A DNA stretch of 64,000 nt from Malacoraja senta (lineage: Eukaryota). Of this stretch, positions 4,285 through 57,200 are shown one piece after another. Under the pieces are notes generated by a model. That model worked only from the letters and a program-made list of their open reading frames with translations, had not been told where the DNA came from and did no database searches. The stretch spans positions 10,604,001-10,668,000 of the forward strand of contig CM075990.1 of NCBI GenBank assembly GCA_038087875.1, given 5' to 3'. Position 1 is the stretch's first letter; each line of letters begins with the position of its first letter. The translations under genes were made by a program, and so were the position numbers.

Positions 4285-4689
4285 AAACCTGTACAAATGA
4301 CATATGGATGACTAATGACATCACATGGTGCGCGTGATGTCATTAGAATACCTTGCGGCGCGCGGCGACATATGATTACGCACGGTGACGTAACCATGCG
4401 TCACCACGCGATACACGTGAGACGTCGGGACGCCAGCATGCGACACCAATGCGTCAGCGTGCGTACCCAATGCGTCAGTGTGCGTATGCAATACGTCAAG
4501 CAGATGGCGCGCAAGGATTTAGTGCATCACGAAATCCTGGAGCGCCGCGCGATACCGCGCGCAACTCCACACTCCTCCATGCGCCCATCCCGCGCTACCC
4601 ACACGCTACCCGTGCGTCACAACGCGACAACCACATTTTTGGACGTCGCATAAATGGCGCGCAAATGGCGACAAAGTGGGACAGGCCCT
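4285..4689. mobile_element. PIF/Harbinger-type MITE (left TIR degenerate)
   Basis: Right TIR GTGGGACAGGCCCT followed by TAA, same terminal motif as the other MITEs here; CpG-rich repetitive interior. Confidence 0.55.
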
Positions 4690-5597: not shown

Positions 5598-6201
5598 AGG
5601 CTCTGTCTTACCTGTTTGCGGTCATCGGCGATGAAGCGCGGCGTCGCCGGTAGCGGGGACCGTGCGGCAACGGCGAGAGCGGCGAGCCTATCCACCGGAG
5701 TGCCGCACGGATGCTGCGCGGGGGCCGAGTAATTCAAACACGGCGGGTCCCACGTGCTTGCGGTAAGTAAAAAAAAGGGCGGGCCGATTGCGATGACGTC
5801 GGCCCACCGCACGTGACTCACTAGCGGCGGCTGTGGCGGCGGCCATCCTGATCGCGGCGCTGTAGCGGTGGCTGTGCCTGCGGCTGTGCAGCACACGTGC
5901 CTCACTGGCGGAGGCACGTGCGTCACTGGCGGAGGCTGTGGCAGTGGAGGTTTGACGCACGGCGCTCGAGCCACACTGGCGGCGGCCCGTGCGGGCGGCC
6001 GTGCCGCACTCGTGCATCACTGGTGGAGGTTGTGCGGTGAGTATAAATTTTTCGACATTGTTGATTTTATTTTAGCACCGTGCGGTATTGGGAACACCGC
6101 TGCACGGCCCCGGAATTGTACGTTCTCACGAGTGCGCGGTCTATGGCGGCAGATTCTTCCCGTTTCGCCGCCAATGACCGCAGACTCGTGAGACAGGCCT
6201 T
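5598..6201. mobile_element. PIF/Harbinger-type MITE
   Basis: Imperfect TIRs AGGCTCTGTCTTAC..GCGGTCATCGGCG / CGCCAATGACCGC..GTGAGACAGGCCTT; TAA TSD at 5595-5597 and 6202-6204; same family as 42711-43277. Confidence 0.85.
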
Positions 6202-14144: not shown

Positions 14145-14474
14145 TAGCCCTGGCCCACGATACGAGTTCATTCCAAGAGCTCTCCCGAGTTTTAAAAAAA
14201 TCAAACTCGTGGTAAGCACGGAGAATGAACATAGCGGGTACGACGGAGCTCGGGGACGTCTCTTAGCGGCTCGTGATGCTAACGGCAGGTACTCGGGAAG
14301 ACTCGCTAACAGCAGGTAAGCACGGGAAGACTCGTGAAGATTTTTCAACATGTTGAAAAATGTCCATGAGAGCCCCGAGTACCAATGAGTGGCCATTACC
14401 GTAAATCTCCGAGTTCAAATCAGGGCAAACTCGGGAGAGCTCTTGGAATGAACTCGTACCATGGGACAGGGCTT
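14145..14474. mobile_element. PIF/Harbinger-type MITE
   Basis: ~48-bp TIRs (TAGCCCTGGCCCACGATACGAGTTCATTCCAAGAGCTCTCCCGAGTTT and its near reverse complement); TAA TSD at 14142-14144 and 14475-14477. Confidence 0.9.
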
Positions 14475-22955: not shown

Positions 22956-24929
22956 AATGTTCTACCAATAGAGTACTTTGATTTTGAATGACAAGCCACC
23001 AATCAGCTGCAAACCTTCTTGTAAATAACAGACTACAAGTGTGCTGTTCATCCACCAATGCTGTTTGTCCGAGTAGCTCCGATGTCACAGGTATTATGAC
23101 ATTTCCATGGAAAAAGTCAATGTTATTTGATTTTCCAAACTAGCTCTGGTTCCACAGCTTCTAATCACTTTATAGCACAAGTAATAATTAAAGAGGATCA
23201 AAATGGTTTACAATTGTTGGCCTTGAAAGTCTAGAAAGAAACAATTTCCTGAGACAAGTAACAGATGCAAAAGGATGGGCCAGTTGACAGCAGGTAGGCC
23301 AAGACCGTGTGTACAGAGGTGCTGAACTGAAACCAGCAAATGTCTAGCCTCAGCTTCTCTTGTAACAAGTGATCACCACCTATTGGGTAAATGCAAAACT
23401 AGTGAAATAAGAGTTTCAAAACTGTAGAAGTGTCCAAGAGGCCAAAGAAAACACACAAAAAGACCAGGAGAGACTACGTTACTCACCCTGGTCAAGATTC
23501 TTTCTGCTGTGGGTGCAATATCTTTAATATGAGGGAGTTAGTATTGGGTGTCAGGCCTAATTTGGCTCATATGTTGAGGATGTTTCTGCATGAGATCTCC
23601 AAGCCTCTTATCATCCAATTCGTCCTTGAATTGTATGTGAAAAACTGAACATAGTGTTGATTTGTTGCATTATTACTACTGCTTGGGCATAAATGGAACA
23701 TCACTAATCATTATTCCAGTAATAGGCACTGCAGATGAAGACGGGAGTTGCCAAAGTGAATCAAAGACAAAGGGAATAGGTAAATAATAATCATTTCTTT
23801 ATCTTCCCATTGCCGTTCCCAAGTATTCTGTATTGCTTCTGTACTAAATGGTCCTGAAACCGTTGGTGCTTATGACCTGTTTAACCTCTTGGTGCCCCAA
23901 CTGACTGAACTCAATAACTGAATTAACATAGGAGAATTCTGTGCTCTCCCTCTGCTGGTTGTTTTCTGCAATTATATTTTACACCAAAGTTGCAAAAGAG
24001 GAAATTTGGGACCCAGATGTTACCCAATAGTTGACAGGTTTTGTTGTGCCCTCAGCCTGCAATGAATTAAGATGAACAGAATTAAGCTGTTTAATATTAC
24101 TAATTTCCAATGTAAGCACCAACACTGATTGTAACTAAAGAGATAATGATTGTGCTCGCCACAAATAAGATAAACACTTGAGGTAAATACTAACAGAAAC
24201 ATCCTAAAGTCACTTGATAATCAGAAATTTTATTAAAAGACAAAGATAATGTTCTAAGTATTTTTGAATTAGCCTGTGGAACCATTTCCCCCTGTTCACA
24301 TAGTAAATTCAATTGGCCAATAATCATCATGAATTGGCAGTATCAAAACAGAACTTTTGTAATCATAGTCTTGAAGATGCTTCTTACACTTGGGGAATAT
24401 TTTATCAACAACTAAACCATGTTTAGATGTGATCACAGACTAGACACACAAAAAAGGGGTTAAAAACAGTTACACAGCATTTTTAGGCTAGATCATTGAG
24501 AGTATTTAAATAGAAAAATAAATAATTTTTTGGAAGATCTGCGAAATAGGAAAAAGCACAAAAAGAGGTGAATACTGGGATGGATCAACCAAGGCTGAGG
24601 GGTCTACTGTTTTTGTCCTTGGGACCTAACAGTTAACATAAAAGTAACTAAATATTATCTCTTTTGCTTTATTGTAAATACCCATTGTAAAGATTCAGTC
24701 AAGATACTTGTCCCTGCATAAGCATGTGGCAGTAAGCTCTACGACATGTAATTAAATTAGCAACATTGATTCCACTAAGTCTGGATTCATTCACAAATGT
24801 TTTTAGAAATTTTAATGCAGGTCATTGCAGGAATAATGCCCATTTGTCAACTTTTCAGAATACTGATAAATCCACAACATTTTGCTTGAAAATATCTTTG
24901 TGTGACACAGTTGATCATCCAAACTGGAA

Positions 24930-25870
24930 CACTGGAGGTTATAGAGAGACTTGAAAGAAGTATATAAAATTATGAGAGGCATAGATAATAATAATAATAA
25001 TAATAAGTTTATTTATATAGCACATTTTCCCAATTGAATTAAATCAAAAGCCAAAGTGCTTTACAGTTAACTAACCATACAAATAATAAAAAGAGGATAG
25101 AAAAAATGACAACACACTATAAGAGATTTTACACAAACACGAACATCCCCCCCACAGTAGAATCTACACTCTCCACTGTGAGGGAAGGCACTAAAATGTC
25201 CTGTCCTCCTCCTCCTCGTAGTCCACCCGAGGTCGGGGCCAGTCTGAGATAGGGTAGGCAGTCAAAATCTTCTTCCAGGATGGGGTAATTTTAAGGTGAG
25301 AAGAGCAACGTTTAAAGCAGATGTGTGGGAAGAGTTTATAAAAACACAGAGGATAGTGGGTGCCTGGATCATACTGCCAGGGGTGGTAAATGAGGCATAT
25401 ACGTACTCTCTCTTGAAAGCATCCAGAGAATTGGCCTCCACTGCCTTCTGAGGCAGGGAATTCCACAGATTCACAACTCTCTGGGTGAAGCATGATCAAG
25501 AATGAGTCGCACCCTGGCCACTCCCACTTCTCCCCTGTCCCATCGTGCAAAAGGTATATAACTGTGTAACTACCTAAGTGTGTAAATGCAAACTTCCAGA
25601 TTCAGGGATAGTTTCTTCCCAGCTGTTAACAGCAACTGAACCATCCTTCCACAACTAGAGAGCAGTCCTGAACCACTATCCACCTTATTTGGAGATTCTC
25701 AGACTATCTTTGATCGGACTTCACTGGCTTTATCTTGCACTAAACATTATTCCCTTATCATGTATCTGCACACTGTGAATGCATCGATTGTAATCATGTA
25801 TTGATTTTCTGCACGCAACAAAAGCTTTTCGCAAAGTACAAGTGACAATAAACTAAACGAAACTAAAACT
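24930..25870. mobile_element. Cluster of LINE/SINE fragments (CR1 in both orientations, an ATT-tailed short element, a Rex1/L2-like 3' end)
   Basis: NLWNSLPQKAVEANSLDAFKRE at 25474(-); (AAT)n tail at 24987-25005; 3' UTR ending CAATAAACTAAAC. Confidence 0.5.
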
Positions 25871-26939
25871 CGAAAGACCTATCTAGGAAATCAGGTACAT
25901 GATGTGGTTTCTTTCAACATTACACATTGAACTTTGCTAGGTAATTTACATTCAACATCATGAGGACGCCAATAAATCCTTTTTTCCTCTCAAGGAAATT
26001 TTGGTGCTTCAAATGTGCCATACCCCAATCTCAAAGTCAAGTCATCTGTTGCTTACATTATTAGGATGCTATGAAACAATGAAAATGAGAAACCATTCAA
26101 TGAAGTAGTTTCAATATTCTGCCAAGTCATAATAAGAGTTGATGATCAGCACAAGATACTCAATATCATTGGACTTTACACAGCTGTAACACTCTTTGAT
26201 GTTGTGAACCAGATATTTATGGTCTTTAGATCAGGAGAATACAATCAATCTAGACATGACATAATTTCCTGAAGTTGGCAATATGAAGCATTAATGTGTC
26301 CTCTGATAAAATATAAAAGTATTTGCAGAGCTCAGAACATAACCAAAATAGGTCAACGGAAATCACATTGGTGGATAAAGATGCATGAGCTTATTCTCCT
26401 TTGAAACTTTTAAAATAAACCAGCATAACAGGGCAAGCAGAAATATGTTTTTTTTTATTGAGTTCAGTCTATTGTCACATGTACCGAGGTACAGTGAAAA
26501 GCTTTAGTTGCGTGCTAACATTTAATGAGGAAATTGAGAGCAACAGAATACTGGAAAATTCATGATAAAAATAAAAAGGAAAACCACTATCCTTCTAATG
26601 CACCTTCCAATAATATTGTCTGGCTCTTTATACCAATGCTATGTTTGAACTGTAATGCCTAAAAGTTCCAGATTGTGGCACAAGAGAGGCTTCCTTTCAA
26701 ATAGGAGAAAGCGTGCAGTGCAATGATTTTTAATTTGTGCTGGATACTCAATTTGCACCAATGGGAGAGACGAGGTTTAAAAGGGTGATTCACCATCACC
26801 TTTCGAAAGGTAATTTGGGACAGAAATTGGTCTTGCCAGCAATGCCAACATTGCTAAAAATTTATTTGATCAATTTGGTATAAATTCAATTCCAAATTCT
26901 GCAAACATATCAAATGAAACCTAATTCCCTGAATCAGGC

Positions 26940-27860: not shown

Positions 27861-27879
27861 CTGGTTATATATATTTAGT

Positions 27880-27923
<44 letters not shown>

Positions 27924-27924
27924 T

Positions 27925-27960
<36 letters not shown>

Positions 27961-28107
27961 ATATATATATATGTGTGTATATATGTGTGTTTGTGTGTGC
28001 GCGTAGATATATATACACACACACATATATATACACACACATACACACATATATATATACACATATATATACACATATATATATATATACACACATATAT
28101 ATACACA

Positions 28108-28151
<44 letters not shown>

Positions 28152-28163: not shown

Positions 28164-28760
28164 CTAAACCAGGTGCGGACCCATTGGGGTCGTCCCCAAG
28201 GCAATATTCCACCAATGAACCCAACTGCGTAGGCGCGGCAAATGGCTTCCCGTTGTGACGCCAGAGAACCCCGTTGTGACGCAAATCACGGCAACCCTCC
28301 CCAACTATGCAGGCGCGGCCGACAAGTGGGAGCGCGACTGCGATATTTTTAAAGTTCAAAATGGGAATAACCTGTAAAATATAAGATCAATGTGAATGCA
28401 TCTCACTCTCCCTCATCAGTCCCCTATTCCCGTCCTCCATTATCCTCCCTCTCCCCACCGTCCACCAAACCTCCTCTGCTTCCTCTCCTCACCCCCTCGC
28501 TCCCCTCCTCCCTCCTCCCTATTCCCCCTCCCCTCCTCTATTACCTCACCATCCCTCTTCCTACCCCTAACCTCCTCCATTCCCCCTCATCCCCCAATGC
28601 TCCCTCCCCTCACACTACCTCTTTCTCATCTCCTCCCTCCCCCACTACCTCCCTCACCTCTCCCTCCCTCTCCTTTCCCCTACCCTCAGTAGTATCCCTC
28701 CCTCCCTCCATAACCCCTCTCCCCTCCCTACCCCCTCCTCTCCCTAAAAAATATTTTTAA
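28164..28760 (-). mobile_element. Non-autonomous Helitron, 3' part
   Basis: Minus strand ends CCCCAATGGGTCCGCACCTGGTTTAG; shares the GCGTCACAACGGG block with 171-345. Confidence 0.7.
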
Positions 28761-29278
28761 ACGAAAGTTTCCAAATTTTATCTCCTAGATTAGCCAAATA
28801 TTTCTGTCAAAAACTGCAGTTAACAGAAAACCATATAATTTTCTCCTTCTCTCCTCTTAAATCACTTTATCTTTTGGTCAATGTGTGGCATGGCATTATC
28901 CTGTTCATGTGTCGTTTATTTCTTAACCCAGTAAATAACTACACCTAATCAATTGGGGCTAGAAGAACAAAAGAAACATATTATTTAAAAAGAAAATACA
29001 CAATTTTAACTTGATAAATGCGTTCAAGATTGGAAAAGAAAAACCCTTCCGATTATCCTATAACCCCTGTCTCACGGTGCGAACTGACCCACGAGGTACC
29101 CCGAGCTTAAAACAAATTTAACTCGTGGTAATCACTTACGATTAACGTAGTGGGAACGTCGGAACTCGTGGACGCAACTTAGCGACTCGTGGCGCTAACG
29201 GCAGGTACCCATGAAACTTGTTAACTCTTGAAAAAGTTCAAACATGTTTAAAGTTTTCCACGAGCAAAATGTACTCTT

Positions 29279-30078
29279 TTTTTTTTTAATTTTTATTTAT
29301 TAGAAGTACATTACATTACAACCACATACATTAGTACTCGTCACTTATATCTTCTTACAATTAATGTACTCCATTTGTTTTTTACACTAGTAAAAGGAAA
29401 AGATTGAAAGAAAGAAGAAAGTGAAGGAAAAAGTGAGAGTGTAGAAAATGTGACAACAAAAAAGGACGAAGACCCTATAAGAACAAAATTAAAAACAAAA
29501 GAAAAAGAGTTAAGAAATAGACCCTAGAAAAGAAGAAGAGAAAGAGGAAAGAGAAACAAATATTTTTATGAGCATTACGCAAATGGGACATACCAACTCT
29601 TCAACTATCATCCCCCCTTACCTAACCTCAATTTTTTTTTTTAAGGTACCTTTGCACCCTATATTTGTAATAATTCTATAAATGCAGACCACGTCAGGTG
29701 GAAGTGATCTGGTTTACCTGCTAGGAGGAGTCTTATCTCTTCTAGGTGTAATGTTTTGAATATATTTGAAATCCACATGTTTATAGTTGGTATTGGAGCC
29801 TTCTTCCAAAATTTTAGAATTAGCTTTTTTCCAGTTATTAACCCATAGTCTATTAGTTTCTTTTGAAACACATTTAGTTCTGGACCATCTTCCGTTATTC
29901 CGAAGATAATCCATTCTGCTTTGGGTATCAGTCTTATTTTAAATAATTTTGTAAAGATTTCGAAAATTTCATTCCAAAATGTTTGAATTTTTGTACAGAA
30001 AACGAATGAGTGCGCTATAGTAGCTTCTTGGGATTGACATTTATCACAAATAGATGATACATTTGGGAACATTTTATC
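29279..30078 (-). mobile_element. 5'-truncated L1 inserted in the Harbinger left arm
   Basis: ORF 29659-30072(-) (CDKCQ..H..C, KKLILKFWK) homologous to the L1 ORF2 C-terminus at 40050-40491; poly-T at 29277-29287; TSD approximately AAATKTACTCTT. Confidence 0.9.
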
Positions 30079-33000
30079 AAATTTACTCTTGAGGTTAAAA
30101 ATTGAAACATTTAAACTCGTTGTAAGAACTTGGTGGCCCTTGAGTTAAACTTAGTGACTCTTGAGTCTACCGTGTTGGATTAACGTTTCGAGTGCGATCT
30201 TTCATCAGAGCCCCGTTTAATTAATAAATCCAGCCACGGTATTTTGACATCAGTTACAATTTCTTCCGGAATATGATCTATTTTGCTTTAATTCATAAAA
30301 TGTCAAATATAATTATAATCTCACCCACTTTCCTCATTCTTTGCCGCGAATATAGATCAATTAAAAAAAAGTCTCAAACCTTTGTACGTATGGAGTAAAT
30401 TGATAATGATCTCCTTGCAAAGCTTTCTCACAGTTGCACTAATCTAATGTGGTAAATAATGATAAGATTACCGCTGAAATGTTGTTAAAGGCAGCAAGTT
30501 TCAACTTTGATTTATGTCGAGTCTCAAAGTTTGAAAGGAATTGTGAGACTAGTCAAGCATAAAGCAGTCCAAAGAGAAGGCAAGCCGAAAACCAACCAAG
30601 AAAGTTTCTCATAAACCATGAATTTAAAATCTTCAGATTAGCAATGATTCCTCGAGACAGCTGCAGTTTTAAGAGGCTATATATTTCATTTTCCATGGTT
30701 ATTTTCATGTATTCCAACATCGTTTTCTCGTCGGATCAACAACTTTGTTGATAGTTGCTTCTTGTAACTCAGATAAATATTTCATGAACAAGTTCTCTTG
30801 TGATTTAAGACGTCTTAATGCTCTCTAAATTGGACGACACCGTCAAAATCTTTTGTCCCCTGCAGCATTAGTTGGTTGAAAGGAATCAACATTTCAGTGA
30901 TTATATTGTGAACGTTTCATTTCCATTCCTTATGCTAATTACGAGAACCCCTTCCCTTGTCACTGCACAAGTAAAGGGTCAGCTGCCCTCGCCAGAACTA
31001 ATAAACAGTTATTTTGCAAGTTTAAGGGATTTAATAGTTAGTATCAGAACACAGTCTTTTACTATATGTCTCAAAATGAGAAATAAAATCTTATAGGATA
31101 TATTATTTTACAAAGACCAGGTCTCCCACCATTGACTCCATTTACACTCCACGCTGCCTCAAAACATATTAAATCAAAGACTTGTCCCATCCCGGTCATT
31201 TCTTCTTCTCCTTGCTCCCGTCCGGCGGGCGGTACAGAAGTTTGATAGCGCGCACTCCCAGCCTCGGGAACAGCTTCTTCCCCTCTATTATCAGGTTTCT
31301 TTAAGGTCTTTCAATAACCGAAGGTACTGTCCGATTCACCTCTGCCTCATTACGGACATTTGGACTCTCTGTGCAACTGGTGCGGTGCAATGCTGAGAAC
31401 TGTATTCTGCACTCTGTATACTGCACTTCGATTCGTACTTGAGTTTGACTTCATTATAATTAAGTATAATATTATTTGATCTCATAGAGTCAGTCATACA
31501 ACACGGAAACAGCTTATTTGGTCCAATTTCTCCATGCCGAACATGGCGCCCCACATGCCAGCGTATGGCCCATATACTTCCAAACCGATGCTATCCATCT
31601 GATAAGATAGTATGCAAAACAAAGCTTTTCACTCGGTACACGTGACAATGATGAAATAATAAACACATTTTTCTATAATTTATTTTGAATCGTTGCTGTA
31701 TTTTATTGCTAACCTAAATTTAGCAAGCAAGTTTAAGCCATTCCCTGGCAATATAACTACATTTCACTTGCTATTTTAATTATTTCCGAACAAAATTCCA
31801 CAGCAAGAGTGACATTTGTAAAATATATAACGTATACACTCTTTTTTTTGATAAATATATGTAGAGTAGTAATATATTTTTGCCAGCAGATGTTAAAAAG
31901 TGACATAATCCTGCATATTTCCTTTAGTTTTTTTTTTACCAATAGTTTAATACATTAGACCACAGTTATAAAAATAAATAGTTAAAGACTATAAACTGTA
32001 GCCAAAGGAACAATATTTTGAGAGTTTGCTATATTTGTAGAATCGAGCATTGCAATGTACTTTCTCGTGAATTAACGGGGTGCTTTCTATTTTGATTGAA
32101 AAGCAAGAATCCAGTCACTGATTATAGGGAGCAGGTAATATTAAACTGCGCACCCCCTGTTTCTGCAACGGATATTGGCAAAGGTTCTGCTTCACCTGGA
32201 AAACTCGTTATCAATTCATAGGATATCATATGAAGGAGAAACTAGATTTGAGACACCAAATCAGCCGTGATCTACCTGTACGGCGGAGAAGACTCAAGGA
32301 TTGCTTACTCCAGCTTAAATTTATTACGTCCTTATTAACGGCCAGTATTTGAAAGGTTATCCTTTAAATGAAATAGTTATTGCCATTCCTAAAGGCTTTT
32401 GCGAAAACTTAAACCGTGGTTTATTATTAAGATACTTGAGAATGTTGTTTCATTAACAAATGCTCCTGCAGTTACTGAGATCAATTTAAAAACACAACAG
32501 TGCCTTCAGTGGATTTATTTCTCAAAAAAAAACTTTATTCATAAAAAGATGTACAGGATATGCAATACACCAAGCCATGTGTAATTTCAAAATAATCTTT
32601 CTCCTGAATAAAAATATGTATAAAACAAAAACCGTGCGAAATCTTTTCATAGATTCTCAGTGGTTAATGCCTTCGGTATTTTTCTAAAATAAACTTTACT
32701 CAGAATAAGAAATGTGCACAAAACAAAAGCAGTGCAATGCATTATCAGTGTCTATACATTCAATAGTGTCAGGACTGTTTCCATCTATATTTAAACAAAA
32801 CTCTTTTGTCGCTATGTGCCCCTTGGGGTGATATCCTACCCTTGTCTGACGGGTGTCCCCATTTCAATATCCTGCAGCGGAAGGGCCATAGACTGTGGTC
32901 CAAATGAACTGCACGTAAATGCAATGCAGATACAAATATTCTGCGTCTGTGTCTGCCATTTCCGTCTTTATGGCTTTCATGTCACGATTGCCAGTTCAAT

Positions 33001-33267
33001 GAGTAATTTGGCTTAATTCAGATTTTATATGCGGATGCGAATAGTTTAATTATAAAGTTTAAATTCTATTAAATATGTTACAGGGAAAAACGTCCAGCAA
33101 TGAAAAGACATCCCTGTATTTAAATAGCGCCCATCACAAACTCAGGAGGTTCCAACGTCTATTACAGTAAAGGAAGTACAGTGAACGTACTTGGATACAA
33201 ATAATGTTGAGCATGAATATTGTTTTGTTTAAAAACGGTGGTAACAAGGCTTGTAAATATGCAAAGG

Positions 33268-33358
33268 CAGACAAAAAATGCTGGAGAAACTCAGCGGGTG
33301 AGGCAGCACCCACGGAGAGAAGAGATATGCGACGTTTCGGGTCGAAACCCTTCTTCAG
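33268..33358 (-). mobile_element. Short repeat with intact minimal hammerhead-like core
   Basis: Minus strand 33358-33331: CTGAAGA-A-GGGT-TTCG-ACCC-GAAA-C-GTC. Confidence 0.65.
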
Positions 33359-34578
33359 TAACACTGTTGCTTATTGAAACAGACTTCATTCACGTTTGGC
33401 TCAAGAGTACCTCGGGAGAGGAACTTGATAACTCGGGAGACGAACTTGGAACATCGCAGAAATGACAAGTTAACGGCAAACATAGTCATACCATGGGAAC
33501 TCGGTTAAAACCTTGATCATACACTTGGAATCTCGTACACAACCACGAGTCTTTCACTCGGGGTACCTCGTGGGTCAACTCGCACCATGAGACAGGGCTT
33601 TATGGCAGAAGAAAACAAAAGATACACCAACATGTGCAGAAAAATGGATTTGTACACTTGTACCTTGCTGCATACAAGATCTGTAGAAAGGGTGTGATCA
33701 ATGATTTTTTAAAGAAAATTGGAGATATAAACTTACCGGGCTATACAGGTAGACCAAAGGAATGGCGCTGAACTTCTCAACAGACTGTGAAATGGACTCA
33801 AAAGGCAGAATAATATTCATACTGTACCATAATTACTCTAAATTTTCCTGCAATGAAATATCACAGCAATTTAAAAAAAAAAATTATCTAAGGAATACCT
33901 GAAGCCTTTTACTTTAACTTTAATAGTGAATCACTTTCACCCATTGTCATCTGTAATTAATACTCAAGTATTAAGGGCCTGTTCCACGGGCGGGCGATTT
34001 CATGCGGCAAGCGCGACCTCCCCGGAAGCGGTTGCCGCGCGGGGGCCGAGTGATCACCGTACGGCCTGTCCCACGGGCATGCGCTTCCATGCGGCGAGCG
34101 CGACCTTACTGGAAGCGGGTGCCACGCGGAGGCCGAGTGATCACCGTATGGCCTGTCCCACGGGCATGCGCTTCCATGCGGCGAGCGCGACCTTACCGGA
34201 AGCGGGGGGTGAGCGGACGTCCAGTTCGAGCAAAGTCCGTTGGAAGCTCGAGCGGTTTTTATGTAGGTGAACACGGGTAGGTGATGTTTCGGGTTTTATG
34301 TAGGTGAACACGGGTAGGCGATGTTCGGATCGAGACCCTTCCTTAGACCATAGAAGACTGCAGAAGGGTTCAGTCCGAAGAAGGTGTCTCGACCCGAAAT
34401 GTCACCTATTCCTTTTCTCCAGACTTCCGGTGGCGCTATGGAGGCTTGAGCCCAGCGTCAACTAGCTCCGCGCTGAAAAATCCGAAAACGGGAGAAAAAT
34501 CGGGACCTACCTGAGGCGATTGCGAATTGAACGGCTGCCTGCTGCGAGTGACGTCATCAGGCGCGCGACTTTGCCGGT

Positions 34579-35641
34579 ATGTCGATACAACATACCCCCC
34601 CCCGGGTGACAAAAAAGCGGTAAAGCGAGACAACCGACGGAAGAGGTAGGCCCAACCGAGGCCTCGGCCTCAGGTACAACGATGCTCCAGGAAGACCCAT
34701 CGAAGAAACCAAAACAAAAAAAATCTGAAATGGAAGAACTTAAAAACTTTATTTCCAATGAGATAAAAAATATTCAAACACAGCTGAAAACCTTTGAAGG
34801 AAAGCTGAATTTTAAAGAGGAACTTAAAGAGGAACTTAACTCTTTTAAGGTAGATTTTAAAGCAGAAATGCTCTCTACCGTTCAGGATATATTGGAAATC
34901 TGGAGAGGTCGAGGGACGACGAGGTCAAGATCAGATGGAAGAGGTGGAAGGCAGGATCGCTTTGGTGGAATCGAGCCTTAAGGGAGAGATTGACCTATCC
35001 TTCAGACACTGAAGCAACATATTATAGCGATAACTGAACTTGAGAAATGTGTGGCGACAAGTGCGGAAACGGTAAATCGACTCCTTACCGAAAATCAACG
35101 CCTCTCCGAAATGGTGGCTAAATTAAGTGGAAAGTGTATCGACCTGGAGGGGCGTCAAAGACGCCAGAACCTAAGAATTGTAGGGGTGAAAGAAGGAAGT
35201 GAGAGGGCTATGGGCACTCGGGATTTTGTGGCAGATCTACTACAAAAATCCTTAAAGTTGGATCAAAAACCTGTACTTGGTCGAGCACATAGAGCGCAGG
35301 GGCGTCGTACACGAGATGATGCCTACCCAAGACAAATTATAGTAAAGGTGCAACTTGATCATGAATTTGACGAGATAATGAAGAAAATTGTCCGTACCAG
35401 AGACCTCTCTTTTGAAGGAGTGAGGATCAGTATCTACAGAGACTACCCGGCGGAGGTCTTCAAGAAAAGAGCGCTGTTTACTGAAACAAAAAGAATACTG
35501 AAGAATATATCGAATTTGAGATACGGCTTGCTTTATCCCGCAACATTAAGCGTCACCTACATGAGCAAGGAACAATTTTTTACAGACCATGAAAAAGCAC
35601 TGGAATTTGCCAAAGGTATCGGGAATGTGACCACAGACTGA
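34579..35641 (+). pseudogene. L1 ORF1p (coiled coil plus Transposase_22-type RRM/CTD), frameshifted
   Basis: DLEGRQRRQNLRIVGVKEG, RAHRA, PRQIIVK, ISIYRDYP, GLLYPATL. Confidence 0.9.
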
Positions 35642-36692
35642 AGAATATACATTACTCCTCAGGAGTCAAGGAATAACGGGACCTCGCCAGGTCTAAAAGG
35701 ATCTTTAAAGTACTTTTAAGAGCTTTAAAGACGTTTGAAAATTGAAATGGACATTGGAGAAAACTTGGGTTTTTTTGATTCTCGGGTTTTTTATTTTTTA
35801 TTTTTTAATTTCTCCTAATATCTCTACATTTTTTTTTTAATTATTCATTCTTCGCGTTTAGTATAAATTCTAAGAACAATAATATCACAATTATCAAGTG
35901 TTACTAATCACTATTATTATTTAGTATTTTCATATTTAACCATACATGTAACTACTAATACTTATTAAATATCATTATTACTATTAAAATTACTAAATCT
36001 ATATTATTCATAAATATTTTTACCATGTATGAATAATAACAATGATTAATAACTAATAGTTTCTGGTTAACGTAGAAATAGATTACATACATATATTCCA
36101 TAGGAATATAAGTAAGAGGTAATTTAGCCCATGTATTAATAAGGGTTGATGGTTTTCCTCTTTATCTTTCAATTAAAAATTAAAAATACATACTTAAAGA
36201 AGATATTAATATGGTATTTAGAGAATAATAACGTTGTTAACTTTTACTGTTGTTTACCTTTTTTGGGTCTTTGAAAAGAAAACAAAAATTTTGCAACTCC
36301 AAAGAAGTTATTTGATTGTTAGAAATATCATCCTTTTTAAAAAAATTTTTTTTAGCACGGAGCTAGGATTTTTTTTTCTTTTACAAAGGCTACGGAAGTC
36401 TTTAGAATTCTAGCCATGCTAGTGTGGCTAACACTAACTACACTAATAGTAGTTGTAGTTTTTTTTCTTTCACCCTATACTAATCATCTATATCACTTTT
36501 TTCACTTTAATTATTGTTATAATTTTAAGTTTGAATGGAATTACAAGGTTAATTCAAGGAGATGTGTTCGGAAGAGCGATGTATATTATTTAAAATTCAT
36601 CTATTTGAGGTTCGGGAGCAGGGTCAGGTTTTATGTGTTGTACCTTCTGCTCGGCTATAGACCACCCTAGAAACAATATGTAAGATGGTAAT

Positions 36693-39600
36693 ATGACAAG
36701 AGGGGGTGAGGGAATAACATTTTGTAGTTGGAATGTTAAGGGAATCAATGAACCAATTAAGAGAGGTAAAGTTTTGGCACATTTAAATTCAATCAAAACA
36801 GATATAATATTCCTTCAAGAAACACACCTTAAAAAGGAATCTCAACATAGACTTAAAGCTAAGTGGATTGCTGAATCGTATCATGCCTCTTTTTCACACA
36901 AGTCCAGAGGAGTTGCAATATTAATTCGTAAAGGAATACCTTTTACACATTCATCAACAATAGCGGATATAGATGGTAGATATATTATATTAGTTGGAGA
37001 GTTAAATGGGATAAAAGTGATTCTTCTTAATGTATATGGACCTAATTTTGATAATCCTATGTTTTTTAATAAAACATTTAATATAATTCCTGAATTTACA
37101 CAATATAAATTAATAATTGGAGGAGATTTCAATTGTACATTAGACTCTTATTTAGATAGATCATCAAGGCAAAAAAAAGTAAAATCTCAATCAAGTGTAT
37201 TTTTAAATTCATTTATTAATACCACTAATATTAAGGATGTCTGGAGAATTGAAAACCCAACTGGACGGGAATACTCATTTTACTCACCGGTACATAAAAC
37301 ATACTCAAGAATAGATTATTTTTTAGTCGACTCCACGGTTATCCCATTTACTTATAACTCAAAATACCATAATATTATAATCTCAGACCATGCACCGGTA
37401 ACATTTATGATTAAATTAAATGGAATGTCCAAGAAACAAACATATTGGAGATTTAACCCACAAATATTGAATGAAAGATCATGTCAGGAATATCTTATTA
37501 AACAGATGCAAACATTCTTTGAGGCAAACGACAACCCTGACACATCAGCCTCTCTTATTTGGGAAACATTTAAAGCGTTTGTCCGAGGCGCATTAATTTC
37601 TGCCCAAGTATTTTATAACAAAGAGAGCCGGATTAAACAACAAACACTGGAAAGGGAAATAAAGCAACTAGATATAGAAAATGCGAGAATGCCAACTACG
37701 TTAAAACATAACAAAATTGCTGTACTGAAATATAAACTAAACAAAATGTATTCAGAACAAGTAATAAAACTTTATCAACATACTAAACAATTACATTTTG
37801 AGTTTGGAGACAAACCACAAAAACTATTAGCACGTCAGCTACGAAAAATGGAGGGGGAGAAAATAATTCATAAAATTAGAGCAGATACAGGAGAATTATT
37901 AAAATTGCCCAAGGATATAAACGAGAGATTTCTCCAATACTATCATAATCTTTACTCAACTAAAACTGTAGTACAACCAGAAGGAATAGCAGATTTTTAC
38001 AAAAATGTAATTTAAAAGGTTTAGATTCAAAAGATAGAGAATTATTAGAAGCGGAGATTACGATAAAAGATATTGAAGAGTCTATTGGATCTTTAAAAAA
38101 TGGTAAAGCAGTAGGACCAGATGGTTTAGGCTCGGAATTCTATAAAAAAATTTATGATTTGCTTTCTCCACGTTTACAAAAGCTGTATGAACATATTTAT
38201 ACTCAACAGAAACTTCCAGATACCTTAAATGAATCTATAATAACACTTATTCCTAAAGCTGATAAGGATCCGGAAGACCCAGGATCATATAGAGCAATTG
38301 CACTTTTAAATACAGATCAGAAAATACTAACAAAAATTTTAGCGCACAGATTAAGTACAGTGATGAATAAACTAATACACCCTGACCAAACAGGTTTTAT
38401 TCAGAAGCGGTATTCATATTACAATCTAAGAAGATTATTTAATATTATATATTCTAAGAGAAATATTAATGAAGATTTAGCAATAATCTCACTTGACGCT
38501 GAAAAAGCTTTTGATCAGGTGGAATGGCCCTATTTATTTTCGGTGATGGAAAAATTGCAGCTGGGCGAGAAATTTTGTGCATGGATAAAACTGTTATATA
38601 CAAACCCTACGGCTAGAATATTAACAAACCAAAGGTTATCATCTAAATTTAACCTATCTAGAGGGTGTAGACAAGGATGCCCGTTGTCTCCATTATTATT
38701 TGCGCTTGTTATAGAGCCACTCGCAGAAAGAGTCAGGACCCATCCGGAAATATATGGGTATAACACAAAGGATACAGTGAATAAAATTTCTTTATACGCA
38801 GATGATGTATTAATTTACATTACAAAACCAGAAATTAGTATTCCAAATTTATTAAAGCTGATAACCCAATTTGGTTCACTCTCAGGATACAGAATAAATT
38901 GGAATAAAAGTGAAATTATGCCAATAAGGGAACATAATAAACATATAATACAACAATTTCCATTTAAAATAGTAAATGAAAAATTTAAATACCTAGGCAT
39001 TTATGTTACTAAGATATATACATCATTATTTAAAGCAAACTTTCCCCCATTACTGAATAAACTACATAAGAATATTCAGTATTGGAAAACACTTCCTATT
39101 TCAATGGTTGGCAAAATTAATGCCATAAAAATGATTTTCTTACCGCAAATATTATACCTTTTTCAAACAATTCCGATATATCTGTCAAAAAACGTTTTTA
39201 AAAAGTTAGATTCCATTGTCAGTGACTTTATCTGGGATTATAAGAATCATAGGATAAGCAAAAAACATCTGTGCAAATCAAAAATAAATGGAGGTTTGGT
39301 TTTACCAAACTTTTTGTTTTATTTTTGGGCAGTTAACATTAAAAATATGAATTTTTGGTTGGAAGAAATAGATCAACAACCAGATTGGTTAAAAATGGAA
39401 AAGGAAGATTGCTCACCTTTTGAAATCGGCTCGATACTATTTGCTACTTCTAAATTAAATTAAAAAAATTATAGGGAAAATCCGATAATATATAGTACTA
39501 TGCGAATTTGGAAACAATTAAAAAAGACATTACAACTAGATAATTTATCACTTTTTCTTCCAATTGCGAATAACCCTTTGTTTAAGCCCTCATGGTTGGA

Positions 39601-40491
39601 CAAGGGTTTCACACAATGGAAAAACTATGGAATTAAAAAGATGGGACACCTTTATAAGGAAGGCACTTTTCTTTCATTTCAGGAGTTGCAACAGATTTAT
39701 GGACTTCAAGTAAATGATTTTTTCAGATATCTCCAACTTAGAGATTACGTAAAAGCAAATACTCTAAATTTTAGAATTAGAAATTCAGAAATTTTTGACG
39801 ACTGTTGGAATAAACATCCTAATACAGAAAAACTAATATCTTATATATATAATATTTTATTAGACAGCGATATCCCATTGACGGACTTACACAGACAAAC
39901 TTGGGAAAAAGAACTAAATCAAATAATAACGAAAGATACTTGGGAAGAAAGTTTACAACACATACATCAATGTTCATTAAATGCCAGACATTCTCTAATA
40001 CAATTCAAAGTAATACATAGGTTACATTATTCTAAAACAAAATTAAATAAAATCTTCCCACATATCTCACCAATATGTGATAAATGTCAACATTTAGAAG
40101 CTAACTTATCTCATATGTTTGCAAATTGCATAAAAATTAAAATTTCTGGGTAAATATTTTCACAATAATATCTAAAGTGACTAGCATTCAATTGGACCCG
40201 GATCCAAAATTGATAATACTTGGAACATTAGAACTAAATCAAACATTTACAACAACTCAAAGAAACTTTATTGATTATAGCATAATAACTGGGAAAAAAT
40301 TAATTCTAAAATTTTGGAAAGGCCCTATAACCCCCACAATTAAAATGTGGATTATAGAAATGACGGAGACCTTACACTTGGAAAGAATTAGACTTGTCCT
40401 GTTGGACAAACAGGAACTATTCGTCGGAACATGGTCTCCCTTTATTGACTATTTAAAGGGTCAGAATGGTTCAGCACAGGAACCTGACTAA
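36693..40491 (+). pseudogene. L1 ORF2p (APE endonuclease, RT, C-terminal Cys region), split by frameshifts
   Basis: SWNVKG, FLQETH, NVYGPN, GGDFN, SRIDYF, SDH; LDAEKAFD, RQGCPLSPLLF, LYADD; four ORF pieces. Confidence 0.95.
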
Positions 40492-42710
40492 CACCCGTGC
40501 CAAGGAATAGATGAAAGGTTATACTCTGAAATGTACGAATATATCTCGAATGAAGTTTTTTATCGTAGTAAATTATTCCATTCTTCTTTATTATCTTTTT
40601 TTTTTTGTTTTTGTTTTTGTTTTTGGTTGGGTTTTTTTGTGGGTTTTTTTTCTTGTTTCTTCTCTTTTCTCTCTTTCTTTCTTTATTTCATCTATATCTT
40701 TTTAGTTCTATTTAGTTTAAAAAAGAAAAGAAAAAAGTATTGGAGACATTGTAATAATAATGGACAATATTTGTAATTTAAAAATGTAAGACTGGTATCG
40801 ATTTTAATATGATATGTATCTACCTCCAATAAAAAATATCTTTAAAAAAAAAATAAAAAAAAAGAAGGTAGCAGATTTTCACGTGGAATTTCACTGGAAC
40901 CATTGTTCCATTACCATTTATTTTATCCTTTAATGGTGGTTCTAGTTCTATTATATGTTATGCCCTGCATGTATACACTGCAGTCTGCAATGAAGTACAA
41001 AAATAATCATGAATTGCCTCTGCAGACATATAAATAAAATCTCACTGATTAATTAATAACTAAAAAAAAACAAATAAAATAAAAATATTCCTTTTCTCCA
41101 GAGATGCTGTCTAACATGCTGAGTTACTACAGCTTTTTGTGTCTATAAGATTAATTCCAAAATAGCTGAGCAACTACTGAGTTCAAAGGCAAGAGGAAGA
41201 GACTGGGCAGGCTGGGACTTATACAAGAGAGTGGTACTATCTTTCATTATCAACATCAATGAAGTTAACAAATTCAATGTACCAAATTAAGGAGTTTGGA
41301 GACCTATCAGGGTGCTTTCCAAAGCAAGTATGTGTCATCTTAGCCAAGGGAAAATAGTGTATAAAATCAGCTGAAACTCATGGAAATAAAATTACATTTG
41401 TGTAAGCTGGTGGAAACGTTGATATTCCTTTTGGGGAAATTTACAACATGAGAGTCCTGAATGCATTATCATTATAAATTAGAACGATCTGGACCAGTAA
41501 GCTTGAAGGTTTAAATGTGCAGTAGGTAATTATATATGGAGCCGAAATGAACAATTATAAACTGAAACATTTCGCCAACGCTATTGTGTACGTACGGATG
41601 AAAAGAGGCATTTAATTCCGTTTTCTACTTCTCCCTTCTTCATGATATAATTTTTTTCAGCAAGTGAAACCTATTTACTGTTTAAAACTGAAAGTAATGT
41701 TTTTACACACTTCATTCTTATGTGTCATAAGTATGAATGAAGATTCAAAGCACCTTACTGATCAAGCAACACAACAAATATCATTTGTAAAATTTGGATT
41801 GATTTGGTATTCACACTTTACCACCAACATCATTTGACCAAATAAGGGGACATTTAAAATATTGTCTAATAAATATGCTCTTGTGATTAAGATGTATTTT
41901 AAACTGCAAATGGTTTACCAAAGGTATCAAGGAATTATTCGAGCAGAATTTTATACTTGGATCCCAAAGCACATGTTTAATTAAATACATTAACTACTTT
42001 TCTTTAACCATGAATATTTGATGATGTTTTCACAATAACATATATCTGCTTCTCACTTCTTCGGTGTAAATGGGCATCTGCAGTTCCTTCCTTCACAACA
42101 ATTCCAGAGTTGACGGAGACGGTGCACGCGGCGTCGAGGCGGTGCGCGCAGCCTCGATGCGGCAGCGGGGCGGCAGGCCGTTGCCGCAGGAGATTTTTGG
42201 ACAATGTCACTTTTTCACAGCCCCGCGCGGTGTCGGGACCAACTCCATACGGCTCCGGCGATCTACGTGGGACCGACCCCGCGACCAACGTGCGGTCCTC
42301 GGGCGGCCCCCGCTTCCTGTTAGGTCGCGCTTGCCGCATGAAATCGCCCGCCCATGGGACAGGCCCTTTACATTGATTACGGTCTGAAATAAGGTTTTGG
42401 TTTATGGACTATGGTTTATGTTACAAACATAATTACAACTGCAAGTGACCTCTGATACATCTAGTAGAATAATCTGTTGGCTGATGATTCTTATAAGGAT
42501 CACATTACAGCTTAAGATCAAATTTCAGCTCATGCTTTGAACTTGATCTTAAAAATGTTCTGCCGTAACAGAGTAACATAGTTTTTTTGCATCATGTTGA
42601 TGTACCTGACACCAAAGATACTAGAAGATACCAAAGATACTCAGTCTTTGCCTGACACTACAGGAGTGTTATACCTAGTGTTTTACTTTAACATCTTCTA
42701 TCCTCAGTAA

Positions 42711-43277
42711 TGGCCCTGACCCACGGGCAGGCGGTTACTGGCGGTGAAGCGCGGCGGCGCCGGAAGCGGGGACTGCGCGGCTACTGCGAGAGCACCGCAT
42801 GTATGCCGCGGGAGCGCCGCACGGATGACGCGCGGGGGCCGAGTGATCTCCGTACGGCCGGTCCCACGAGCTTGCGGTAAGTAAAAAAAATTAAACCTTA
42901 CCGGAAGCTGTTGCCGCGCATATGCCGGGTGATCACCGCACGGCCTGTCCCACGAGCGCGGCGTCGGGTGATGACCACATCGCGCAACGCAATGCGCTAC
43001 GTGATGACGTAAATTCGGCTCACGGCGCTGTGGCGGTGCTAGTGGTGCTCACGGCGCACTGGCGGCGGCTGTGCGGTAGGACAACATTTTTGAACGTTGT
43101 CGACTTTTTGTAAAGTCGGGACCGTGGGACCGTGGGACCAACACCGCACGGTCCCGGCGGTGTACGTGGGACCGACCCCGCGGGCCATGCGCGGTCTCTG
43201 GCGGTCCACGAGCGGTCCCAACTTCCTGCTTCACCACCAGTAACCGCCAGTAACCGCATACCCGTGAGACAGGCCTT
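42711..43277. mobile_element. PIF/Harbinger-type MITE
   Basis: TIRs TGGCCCTGACCCACGGGCAGGCGGTTACTGGCGGT / ACCGCCAGTAACCGCATACCCGTGAGACAGGCCTT; TAA TSD at 42708-42710 and 43278-43280. Confidence 0.85.
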
Positions 43278-54146: not shown

Positions 54147-54298
54147 TAAGTTTTGAGGACCCTAGACGTTTTTTTGGGGGGGGGGTTTGGTAGGCTTCTG
54201 ACTAAGGAATTCTGTGTTGTGAGGGAAATGTTTTCTTCTCTGTTTGTGATAGCATTGGTGCCCAGGGTTTTAGCTGGTGGTTTGGAGTTACATTTGAA

Positions 54299-57200
54299 AT
54301 GGAATTTAAGGTGGAAGAGTTTGTTGAGACTCCTAGCCTAGAGATGTTTCATCAATGTACTAAGGCAAATTTAGTGTTGCTTGCAGATAAATATGGCGTT
54401 TCTATTAATAAACTGGCACACAAACTGTCAATTAAGACGTTGTTATGGACTGCTTTGGTTGACCAAGAGGTGTTGCCTAGTAGTCCTGACAGTCATAAAT
54501 CTATACAGCCAGTTCAGAACATGGAGGCCGTCATTAAACTGAAGGAGATGGAGCTTGAGTCACAGAGAATGGAGCTCATGCATGTTCTTGAAATGAAACG
54601 GCTTGAGGAGGAAACCAAAAGGGCTGAATTTCAGCTGCGGGAGAAAGAATGAGATATTTCCCGGTTCTCTTCTAGAGAGCATGAGTTTGATGTGAGCAGA
54701 AATATTCGTTTGGTTCCACCATTCAGTGAAAAAGATGTTGATAAATATTTCACTTTGTTTGAGCGTGTGGCTATATCACTGAAGTGGCCTAGGGACGTGT
54801 GGACCTTGCTATTGCAGTGTGTCCTTGTGGGTAAAGCACGGGAGGTGTACTCGTCTTTGTCTGTTGAAAGTAGTCTGGACTATGAGTGTGTGAAGTCTAC
54901 AGTATTAAGGGCTTATGAATTAGTTCCAGAGGCGTACCGGCAGAAATTCCGGCGCTTTAGGAAGTTTGATAGTCAGGCTTATGTGGAGTTTGCTAGGGAG
55001 AAGGAGGCACTTTTTGACATGTGGTGCGCTTCTCAAGGAGTGAAGGATATTGGGCAACTGCGGGCCTTGGTGATTATGGAAGACTTTAAGAACTGTCTCC
55101 CTGAGAGGGTTACTACTTACCTTAATGAGCAGAAGGTGAATGAGGTGTCTAAGGCAGATGAGTATGTATTGACTCATAAAACTGATTTTGTTGGGCGCTC
55201 CTATAGTTTTGGTGCACGGACGGTTGATCGTGGTGGTGTCGCTGGTGGCAGTGTCAAAGGTGTTTCTGTGCCTGCAAGTGGCAGCACGTTGATACAGGGG
55301 GAGGTCCGAGCTGATAAGGTAGACGGAAATTTGAGGACTAACGAAGGTCCTGTGTGCTACTATTGTAGAGGGAGAGGGCACATGTTAAAGGCGTGTCCCA
55401 TTCTGAAGCAGAAAAATGCAAAGCCTGTGGCTTTGGTGGGTACACAGAAGGCACCTGTGGTACCTGAGGTGCCTGAGTCTGAGGAGTGTAGGAATTATTC
55501 TGCGTTCATCATGAATGGTTTTGTTTCTCTGGAGGATGGGGGTGATAAAGTTCCAGTATCCATCTTGCGTGATACTGGTGCTACTCAGTCCTTTATATTG
55601 GAGAGTGTACTGCCGTTTTCTGGTGAATCATCGGTTGGGTCAAGTGTCCCTGTGGTAGGATTCGGGATGGATGACATGGTAGTGCCTTTGCATACCGTGA
55701 GTCTCGAGTCTGAGTTGGTTTCAGGCCGGGTAACTGTTGGGTTACGGCCGTGTTTTCCCGTTGGGGGAGTTTCTGTAGTTTTGGGGAATGACTTGGCAGG
55801 AGGTCGAGTTTTGGTTACTCCTGAGGTGACGGCTGTTCCGATGGTGCAGATTGCTGATAGATTGGCTATGCAGCATCCGAGGGTCTTCGCAGCTTGTGCT
55901 GTCACGAGGGCTATGGCTAAGCGCCAAGCGAAGTTTGAGGATGTAGTGGACCTGAGTGAGAGCATTTTTGGGGATCAGGATGAGGGATCCTGTGTTGTGA
56001 AGGGTGTTTCTACATCTCAAGATGGGATAGTGTCTGAAAATGGGCCGGTGTCGCTGTCACGTGACCGGCTGGTTGAGGAGCAAAAGAGTGATCCAGGTTT
56101 ATCTGATCTGTTCGACTGCGCGGTGCCTGAGGGGGATATGGATTCCACAGAAAAGGGTTATTTCCTAAGGGAGGGCTTACTGATGCGAAAGTGGTCTCCC
56201 TTGGATATATCTGGGCATGATGATTGGAGCGTGGTTGATCAGATTGTGATACCTCGTCGGTATAGGGACGAGATACTCGGTTTGGCTCATGATGGTCCTC
56301 TGGGTGGACATTTGGGGGTCAATAAGACGTATGACCGTATCTTACGGAATTTTTTTTGGCCAGGGTTGAAAAGGGACGTGAAAAGTGCAGGTGTTGTCAC
56401 ATTTGCCAGGTGGCAGGAAAGCCGAACCAATCGATTGTTCCTGCGCCATTATATCCAATCCCTGTGGTCGGTGATCCGTTTGAGTGGATTCTAGTTGATT
56501 GTGTGGGTCCTCTAGCTCGGACAAAGATGGGCAACAAGTTTTTATTGACAATTATGTGTGCGTCTACCCGCTTTCCGGAGGTGGTCCCTTTGCGTAGAAT
56601 TACTGCCCCTACCATTGTGAAGTCACTCACTACGTTTTTTTCGTTGTTCGGTTTGCCCAAGGTTGTGCAGAGTGACCAAGGTTCCAACTTCATGTCGAAG
56701 GTTTTTGGTCAGGTAATGAAGTTGTTAGATATTAAGAATTGTTACTCCAGTGCGTATCACCTTGAGAGCCAGGGAGCTCTCGAGAGGTTTCACCAGAATC
56801 TGAAATCTATGTTGAGGACTTACTGCCTGGAGTTTGAAAAAGACTGGGATGAGGGGGTTCATCTAGTTATGTTTGCGGTGCGTGAGGTCGTGCAGGAGTC
56901 TTTAGGGTTCAGTCCTGCTGACCTGGTGTTCGCGCATACTGTATGTGGGCCGTTGAGGGTCCTAAAGGAGAAATGGTTGCAGGAGGATACAAAACGTAGT
57001 ATTTTAGACCACGTCTGTACCTTTCGGTCTAGACCGAAGAGGGCATGCGAACTGGCAATGGGTAATCTTGCTTCTGCTCAGTCTAGGATGAAGGGGTGGT
57101 TCGACAGGAAGACTTCTAGTAGGAATTTTTCTCCAGGTGACAAGGTCCTGGTGTTTTTGCCTATTCCTGGTTCCAGTCTGCAGGATCGGTATAGTGGTCC

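What the first reader, a model, noticed from the sequence alone, without database searches (positions are those of the whole stretch)
29062..33600. Pack-type Harbinger element: MITE arms enclose ~3.2 kb of genomic DNA with unusually well-preserved CpGs
Seen: matching ~44-bp TIRs 4.5 kb apart with TAT on both flanks. The left arm is homologous to the 330-bp MITE at 14145. The interior (~30180-33395) has no recognisable transposase ORF and contains ordinary host-type repeats. Although AT-rich, it is visibly richer in CpG than flanking DNA such as 23000-26900, and its embedded repeats keep CpGs (31190-31270, 33331-33345) that are decayed in outside copies. Known: TIR elements can capture and move host DNA (Pack-MULE/Pack-TIR). 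Inference: the cargo was copied from a germline-hypomethylated locus such as a CpG-island shore.
Basis: partly seen in the sequence, partly recalled or inferred. Interest (0 to 1): 0.7.

Follow-up and report, generated by a model that had tools for sequence, protein, structure and literature searches.

The report
Transposon carrying multiplied host DNA
A small cut-and-paste transposon picked up about 3,200 bases of ordinary non-coding host DNA and spread it to dozens of copies in one animal lineage; such capture is known in animals, but usually involves much shorter pieces and single copies.

Summary
29062-33600 is a non-autonomous PIF/Harbinger-type element: 44-bp TIRs (40/44 identical) and a TAT target duplication. 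Contigs of two related organisms (B, D) show the empty site, so it is an insertion. The 3.2-kb interior (30178-~33396) lies in those relatives at single-copy depth, about 5% diverged like the flanks, with no TIR arm at its left edge: a host donor locus. In the run matching the window's own flanks, cargo depth implies about 17-28 copies where least covered and up to about 60-118 near one end, with internal-deletion joints. A further unnamed run is also multicopy. No coding remnant was found. A truncated L1-like LINE later inserted in the left arm. CpG o/e is 0.79 at 36.5% GC against 0.21-0.35 in old background DNA. This fits a germline-unmethylated donor, but it is not a classical CpG island and methylation was not measured. 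Pack-TIRs, including Pack-Harbingers, are known in animals; the 21 published PIF-Harbinger rows carry 104-804 bp, and only four multicopy Pack-TIR cases were reported in that survey's reference genomes. Verdict: a large, amplified variant of a known kind.

The parts
29059..29061 (.). left target-site duplication TAT
   Evidence: empty site with a single TAT in organism B (X7 record 25)
29062..29105 (+). left terminal inverted repeat (44 bp)
   Evidence: 40 of 44 identical to the right TIR
29062..29278 (+). outer left arm, high-copy MITE sequence, ~74% identical to the MITE at 14145-14474
   Evidence: depth about 1e5 in X1, X7, X13 (table 2)
29279..30090 (-). 5'-truncated L1-like LINE (end of ORF2, 3' UTR, poly-A) inserted in the left arm; near-identical 12-bp flanking repeats at 29267-29278 and 30079-30090 (likely TSD; 5' junction ambiguous)
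   Evidence: ORF 29659-30144; weak zf-RVT E 0.011; aligns with the ORF2 C-terminus of the L1 at 39464-40400; flanks printed; bin 29272-29445 has depth 330,167 in X1 but 0, 0 and 4 in X3, X7, X13
30091..30177 (+). inner left arm with ~21-bp subterminal repeats
   Evidence: tandem repeat 30127-30166; donor contigs stop matching at 30178
30178..33396 (.). captured host DNA (cargo), ~3.2 kb, non-coding, AT-rich, CpG o/e 0.79; left edge exact, right edge known only to about 33360-33400
   Evidence: single-copy-depth contigs in organisms B and D begin matching at 30178 and carry 333 and 317 further non-matching letters (table 8, records 28 and 10)
31166..31295 (+). old interspersed repeat inside the cargo (recalled as a LINE 3' end; that label comes from no call), CpG-rich
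   Evidence: nhmmer relatives at 25492 and 9274; about 3000 copies' depth in B and D
33266..33358 (+). SINE fragment inside the cargo, 19% from the majority of window copies, CpGs kept
   Evidence: donor contigs in B and D end inside it (33291, 33295)
33397..33600 (+). right arm, high-copy MITE sequence ending in the TIR 33557-33600; inner edge approximate
   Evidence: depth 53,922-315,482 in X1, X7, X13
33601..33603 (.). right target-site duplication TAT

Best explanation
A non-autonomous PIF/Harbinger-type element acquired ~3.2 kb of single-copy non-coding host DNA between its arms and was then moved repeatedly by a transposase acting in trans (a multicopy Pack-Harbinger). Shown: TIRs, TSD, empty site in two relatives, cargo at single-copy depth without the left arm in those relatives, high cargo depth in the run that matches the window. 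Inferred: (1) capture by template switching during repair or replication of the element (gap filling or FoSTeST), after the split from B and D; a TTGG stands both at the end of the left arm and just before the right arm and may be the microhomology; (2) amplification by transposition, with internal deletions that spare the ends; (3) later L1 insertion; (4) the CpG content is inherited from a donor that was unmethylated in the germline, an AT-rich non-methylated island of the fish type, not a classical CpG island. The copies are most likely neutral passengers.
For:: X7 record 25 joins 28897-29058 to 33601-33957 with no gap; X13 record 9 joins 28750-29061 to 33613-33957. Cargo contigs have depth 24.6-33.2 in X7 and 25.9-28.1 in X13, equal to flank depth (22.6-30.4), and both break at exactly 30178. 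Cargo divergence from B and D is 5.3% (167/3156) and 4.8% (150/3134); flanks are 5.5% (36/658) and 4.7% (31/657). X1 has flank contigs with 0 substitutions in 558 bp (one gap) at depth ~3, and cargo contigs at depth 88.6, 92.1 and 193.6 with 6 differences in 836 bp. Single-copy depth calibrated on shared repeats is 3.5-5.2, giving 17-28 copies at the least-covered long contig and up to 62-118 at 32588-32729. Joints 30500>30960 and 31587>32484 (depth ~165, 2-3 ambiguous letters) occur only in X1. X3 cargo depth is 7-37 against an implied single-copy depth of 0.5-1.2. All 5 TIR elements in the window have perfect 3-bp TSDs (TAA, TAA, TAT, TTA, TAA). Longest stop-free run in the cargo is 86 codons, below the simulated median of 107. 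CpG o/e is 0.76 even without the embedded repeats; TpG+CpA o/e is 1.14 against 1.25-1.35 in five old background stretches.
Against: The flanks of the other copies were not seen, so it is inferred, not shown, that they are TIR-flanked and dispersed. Contig depth is summed over contigs and the tool warns it is no copy number; X1 coverage is low and its library type is not on record. The letters beyond 30178 in B and D were not displayed, and the right edge of the donor is hidden by the SINE. No joint from left arm to right arm (an empty parent element) was among the 15 joints shown (400 were not shown). The two deletion joints have only 25-27 letters on the shorter side. TAT is not the canonical TAA/TTA. 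No transposase partner could be searched (no genome held). Methylation was not measured.
Confidence: 0.82

Rival explanations
1. The cargo is not host DNA but the interior of another, unrecognised low-copy transposon or other foreign insertion, young enough to keep its CpGs, that sits once in B and D.
For: Young transposons in this window are also CpG-rich (o/e 0.62-0.68). The donor's wider context was not seen.
Against: No coding trace. It holds old host repeats, one 19% from its family majority, which are also present in the B and D copies.
Confidence: 0.08
2. This copy is a one-off Pack element, and the high depth in X1 comes from tandem or segmental amplification of the donor, or from a depth artefact.
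For: No second TIR-cargo junction with different flanks was displayed; X1 has low coverage and an unknown library.
Against: Depth is lower in the middle and higher toward the cargo ends, with deletion joints, as expected for a TIR deletion series. A second run (X3), which lacks the L1 3' end and so differs from X1, shows the same excess. Shared repeats calibrate X1 consistently at 3.5-5.2.
Confidence: 0.07
3. Composite capture: two MITEs inserted on either side of the donor segment and were moved together by their outer TIRs (the Catoni/Gisby neighbouring-insertion model), instead of template switching. The end product is the same; only the birth differs.
For: The right arm is not homologous to the 14145 MITE beyond the TIR, and no empty-parent joint was displayed. 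The model is described for Pack-PIF in maize (PMC8903248).
Against: No inner TIR remnants were found at either cargo edge. The possible TTGG microhomology suits template switching.
Confidence: 0.2
4. Two independent half-MITEs around syntenic DNA, or a decayed autonomous Harbinger.
For: None found.
Against: Empty site in B and D; no DDE_Tnp_4 or Myb/MADF-type Pfam hit at E up to 1 in six frames.
Confidence: 0.01

Closest known systems
Animal Pack-TIRs (Tan et al. 2021, PMC8277862; seen: abstract, sections 7, 9, 10, 14, passages, searched rows of Supplementary Data 1 and 2)
   Same: Host sequence between the two ends of one TIR element, with a parental copy not tied to the element. 21 of the 370 rows are PIF-Harbinger (frogs, alligator). 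Multicopy cases lack an orthologous element in outgroups, as here.
   Different: The 21 PIF-Harbinger parental segments are 104-804 bp, median 207; median for all is 224 bp. Only four multicopy cases were found in reference genomes, the illustrated one with three copies. The largest human case is 3,585 bp and may be a retrocopy. Elephant shark had 0. Here: ~3.2 kb, tens of copies, a deletion series.
Plant Pack-PIF / Pack-TYPE elements (Gisby and Catoni 2022, PMC8903248; seen: passages and section 9)
   Same: PIF TIRs, TAA/TTA-type TSD, captured host DNA amplified to tens of copies (72 in maize cluster 18 group B).
   Different: Plant case; its cargo is a 163-bp gene fragment. Here the cargo is about 20 times longer and no gene fragment was detected.
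Rice Pack-MULEs drawn from low-methylation regions (Wang et al. 2016, PMC4858842; seen: abstract and passages)
   Same: Parental sequences come preferentially from low-methylation regions, as inferred here.
   Different: MULE superfamily; GC-rich genic cargo, against AT-rich (36.5% GC) non-coding cargo here.
Non-methylated islands of cold-blooded vertebrates (Long et al. 2013, PMC3583005; seen: passages)
   Same: In zebrafish, NMI CpG o/e is high while GC content is near background, the cargo's profile.
   Different: NMIs are defined by measured methylation; here only sequence composition is available.

Membership tests
PIF/Harbinger superfamily | 3-bp target-site duplication, typically TAA/TTA | tested here: met
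   3-bp TAT duplication with a single TAT at the empty site; 4 of 4 sister elements in the window have TAA or TTA. TAA/TTA rule from PMC3014272 and PMC8903248. TAT itself is one base off.
PIF/Harbinger superfamily | terminal inverted repeats | tested here: met
   44-bp TIR, 40 of 44; longer than the 14-25 bp quoted in PMC3014272. Purine-purine termini fit Harbinger and not the CAC start of Chapaev3, which also makes TWA; the RR rule is recalled.
PIF/Harbinger superfamily | DDE transposase and Myb/SANT protein of the Harbinger type, in the element or in an autonomous partner with the same TIRs | not testable with these tools
   None in the element, as expected for a non-autonomous copy; no genome is held to look for a partner. 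The assignment rests on TSD and termini.
Kolobok / piggyBac (TTAA-target elements) | TTAA target-site duplication | tested here: not met
   Flanks would read TATA/TTAT; the empty site holds only TAT.
Pack-TIR (Tan et al. 2021) | internal non-transposon sequence of 100-5000 bp between two ends of the same TIR element | tested here: met
   ~3.2 kb, non-coding, matching TIRs.
Pack-TIR (Tan et al. 2021) | a parental copy not associated with the TIR element | tested here: inconclusive
   Met on the left side in relatives B and D (single-copy depth, 317-333 non-arm letters beyond 30178). The right side, and the donor in the window's own genome, were not seen.
Multicopy Pack-TIR | several copies, each with its own TSD | tested here: inconclusive
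   Depth implies tens of copies; only this copy's TSD was seen.
Classical CpG island | GC above 50% with CpG o/e above 0.6 over a sustained stretch | tested here: not met
   0 windows of 500 bp pass; 52 windows of 200 bp pass, all starting at 31147-31222 inside an embedded repeat.
Non-methylated island | measured absence of methylation in germline or tissues | not testable with these tools
   Only indirect signs: CpG o/e 0.79 and reduced TpG/CpA excess.

The most novel reading that the evidence does not exclude
The transposon has mobilised a whole non-methylated regulatory island, and the dispersed copies stay unmethylated in the germline despite lying inside a transposon. Tens of promoter-like or Polycomb-nucleating islands would then have been seeded across one vertebrate genome. 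Hint: only 1 of 17 displayed substitutions private to this copy is a CpG loss, where about 6 are expected at a tenfold CpG rate (p 0.006; p 0.09 at fivefold). Those 17 come from a filtered table (40 of 683 rows) that may under-represent CpG sites.
Probability: 0.25. Interest if true: 0.8.

Novelty: new variant of a known kind. Interest (0 to 1): 0.52.

Why it matters
In the one broad animal survey found, Pack-TIRs are short, nearly all single-copy and mostly born without transposition. A multi-kilobase cargo amplified to tens of copies shows that plant-like Pack transposition also operates in a vertebrate lineage. The family is a natural experiment: the same CpG-rich, AT-rich host segment sits at its native locus and at dozens of new ones, so one long-read methylome would show whether the unmethylated state is encoded in the sequence or overridden by transposon silencing. 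The copies and deletion types are also ready phylogenetic markers. If the copies are methylated and inert, it is a good but ordinary example.

Tried and rejected
Alternative genetic code: the stops in the fairly open frames at 30340-31100 are a mix of TAA, TAG and TGA, so no ciliate-type reading. Exhaustive HMMER search of the + frame 30443-31105 over 1.84 billion representatives gave 1 hit, P0001 (E 4e-39), an artefact: a 27-residue match (31 bits) summed over 22 tandem repeats of an insect mucin/peritrophin. Word-index searches found nothing: the - frame 30331-31107 (longer proteins only) and one + frame of 31641-33263. These cover 3 partial frames only, so a short exon is not excluded. Six frames against PDB sequences: only asparaginase at E 0.04-0.1, over a repeat. 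Rfam: 0 matches in the window. Metagenome scans with a TIR and a cargo pattern: 0 and 0. No RNA holder listed, which says nothing on expression. TTAA-target superfamilies rejected by the empty site. The joint 31633>33274 (X1, X7, X13) was set aside as a probable repeat-to-repeat artefact. Four look-ups of earlier findings returned nothing. Literature: 'Pack-TIR' occurs in 3 held papers; searches for skate or chondrichthyan Harbinger and DNA transposons (listings only) showed no description of this family. Subscription papers and Repbase/Dfam were not searchable, so the family may already be catalogued as an unnamed Harbinger-N consensus.
Full report
Setting. The window is repeat-rich animal DNA: LINEs, SINEs, a Gypsy element and several TIR elements. 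I recognise the SINE and LINE-tail motifs as those of cartilaginous fishes (skates or rays); this is recalled and comes from no call. No genome is held, so comparative evidence comes from one laying of public contigs from 4 of the 21 runs listed.

Observation. The ends 29062-29105 and 33557-33600 are 40 of 44 identical inverted repeats, with TAT on both sides. The left arm is ~74% identical to the MITE at 14145-14474; the right arm shares only the TIR with it. All 5 TIR elements I could pair in the window have exact 3-bp duplications: TAA, TAA, TAT, TTA, TAA. TAA/TTA is the Harbinger signature (PMC3014272, passages; PMC8903248, passages). An ~800-bp 5'-truncated L1-like LINE lies in the left arm on the minus strand. 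Without it the element is ~3.7 kb: ~300 bp left arm, ~3.2 kb interior, ~200 bp right arm.

It is an insertion. In organism B a contig runs from 28897-29058 straight into 33601-33957, leaving one TAT. In organism D a contig joins 28750-29061 to 33613-33957 with 8 letters between (table 8, records 25 and 9). This removes the 'two half-MITEs' reading and the TTAA-target superfamilies.

The interior is host DNA. In B and D, 30178 to ~33295 is covered by contigs at depth 24.6-33.2, the same as the flanks (22.6-30.4). In both, the match starts at exactly 30178 and the contig carries 333 (B) or 317 (D) further letters that do not fit the arm. Divergence from the window is 5.3% and 4.8% in the cargo, and 5.5% and 4.7% in the flanks (Fisher p 0.94). 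So capture dates from about or after the split, and the cargo is on average no more conserved than neutral flank. The contigs end inside the SINE at 33266-33358, so the right edge is only bracketed (33360-33400). No coding trace was found: Pfam and PDB in six frames, one exhaustive and two word-index protein searches on parts (the single hit is a tandem-repeat artefact), and a longest open run of 86 codons against a simulated median of 107.

It is a family. Run X1 matches the window's flanks with 0 substitutions in 558 bp (one gap), including the left junction, at depth ~3; shared repeats calibrate its single-copy depth at 3.5-5.2. Its cargo contigs have depth 88.6, 92.1 and 193.6 and differ from the window at 6 of 836 bases. 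Using 3.2-5.2 as single-copy depth, 17 listed sites give 10-118 copies: 17-28 at the long central contig, 62-118 at 32588-32729. Two joints seen only in X1 (30500>30960 and 31587>32484, depth ~165) indicate internally deleted derivatives. Run X3 lacks the L1 3' end, so it is a different organism by inference; it shows cargo depth 7-37 against an implied 0.5-1.2 and is 4% from the window on average, so amplification is not confined to one sample. Against this: contig depth is a rough proxy, the library type of X1 is not on record, the joints have short sides, and no other copy's flanks were displayed.

CpG. The cargo has CpG o/e 0.79 (0.76 without its repeats) at 36.5% GC; five old background stretches have 0.21-0.35, and TpG+CpA o/e is 1.14 against 1.25-1.35. 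Two mixed stretches give 0.37 and 0.44, and young transposons 0.62-0.68, so the figure is informative only because the cargo is old host DNA. Elephant shark DNA, transposons included, is globally methylated, with fewer than a tenth of sites unmethylated (PMC5437953, passages). Fish non-methylated islands have high CpG o/e at background GC (PMC3583005, passages). A germline-unmethylated donor is therefore the best reading (my estimate about 70%), but it is not a classical island and nothing was measured. The embedded-repeat argument is weak on its own (3 of 3 against 11 of 21). Of 17 displayed substitutions private to this copy, 1 is a CpG loss, a weak hint that copies are not decaying at methylated rates; the table is filtered and the tenfold rate is recalled.

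Mechanism. Most likely, an element of this MITE clan switched template onto the donor during repair or replication and took up 3.2 kb (inferred; TTGG stands at the end of the left arm and just before the right arm, but no parent was seen). The product kept both TIRs and was moved repeatedly by a trans-acting Harbinger transposase (inferred; insertion shown for this copy), shedding internal segments. Capture by two neighbouring MITEs (PMC8903248, section 9) remains a rival for the birth step.

Known systems. Tan et al. 2021 (PMC8277862; abstract, sections 7, 9, 10, 14, passages, searched supplement rows) list 370 animal Pack-TIRs, 21 of them PIF-Harbinger with 104-804 bp parental segments, four multicopy cases in reference genomes, and none in elephant shark. 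Rice MULEs capture from low-methylation regions (PMC4858842). So both the kind and the methylation bias have precedent; the size and copy number in a vertebrate are unusual. Searches showed no description of this family, but Repbase, Dfam and subscription papers were not searchable.

Verdict. A real, well-supported multicopy Pack-Harbinger with an unusually long non-coding cargo: a new variant of a known kind, interest 0.52. The open and testable question is whether the copies carry an unmethylated state with them.

Noticed in passing
window 33974-42367: A second Harbinger-type element (TSD TTA/TTA) is stretched to 8.4 kb by a long L1-like LINE with ORF1-like, endonuclease and RT frames at 34994-40400.
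   Followed up: partly
window 5598-6201, 14145-14474, 42711-43277: Three further MITEs of the same clan, all with TAA/TAA duplications; a further terminus at 4689 was left unpaired.
   Followed up: partly
window 54206-58721: Gypsy-type LTR retrotransposon with a SCAN domain and the integrase placed before RT and RNase H; this order is recalled as Gmr1-like. Split over several frames.
   Followed up: partly
window 62018-62557: Open frame that looks like a Helitron Rep/helicase fragment by eye (recalled); no Pfam hit at E 0.001.
   Followed up: no
window 29272-29619: The L1 3' end has depth above 3e5 in X1 but is absent or scarce in X3, X7 and X13: a very large lineage-specific L1 burst.
   Followed up: no
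window 32578-32925: Depth is 7- to 70-fold above single copy in B and D: a low-copy repeat inside the cargo with no relative in the window.
   Followed up: no
window 27866-28151: Long (TA)n-type microsatellite, 143 units, source of most inverted-repeat hits.
   Followed up: no
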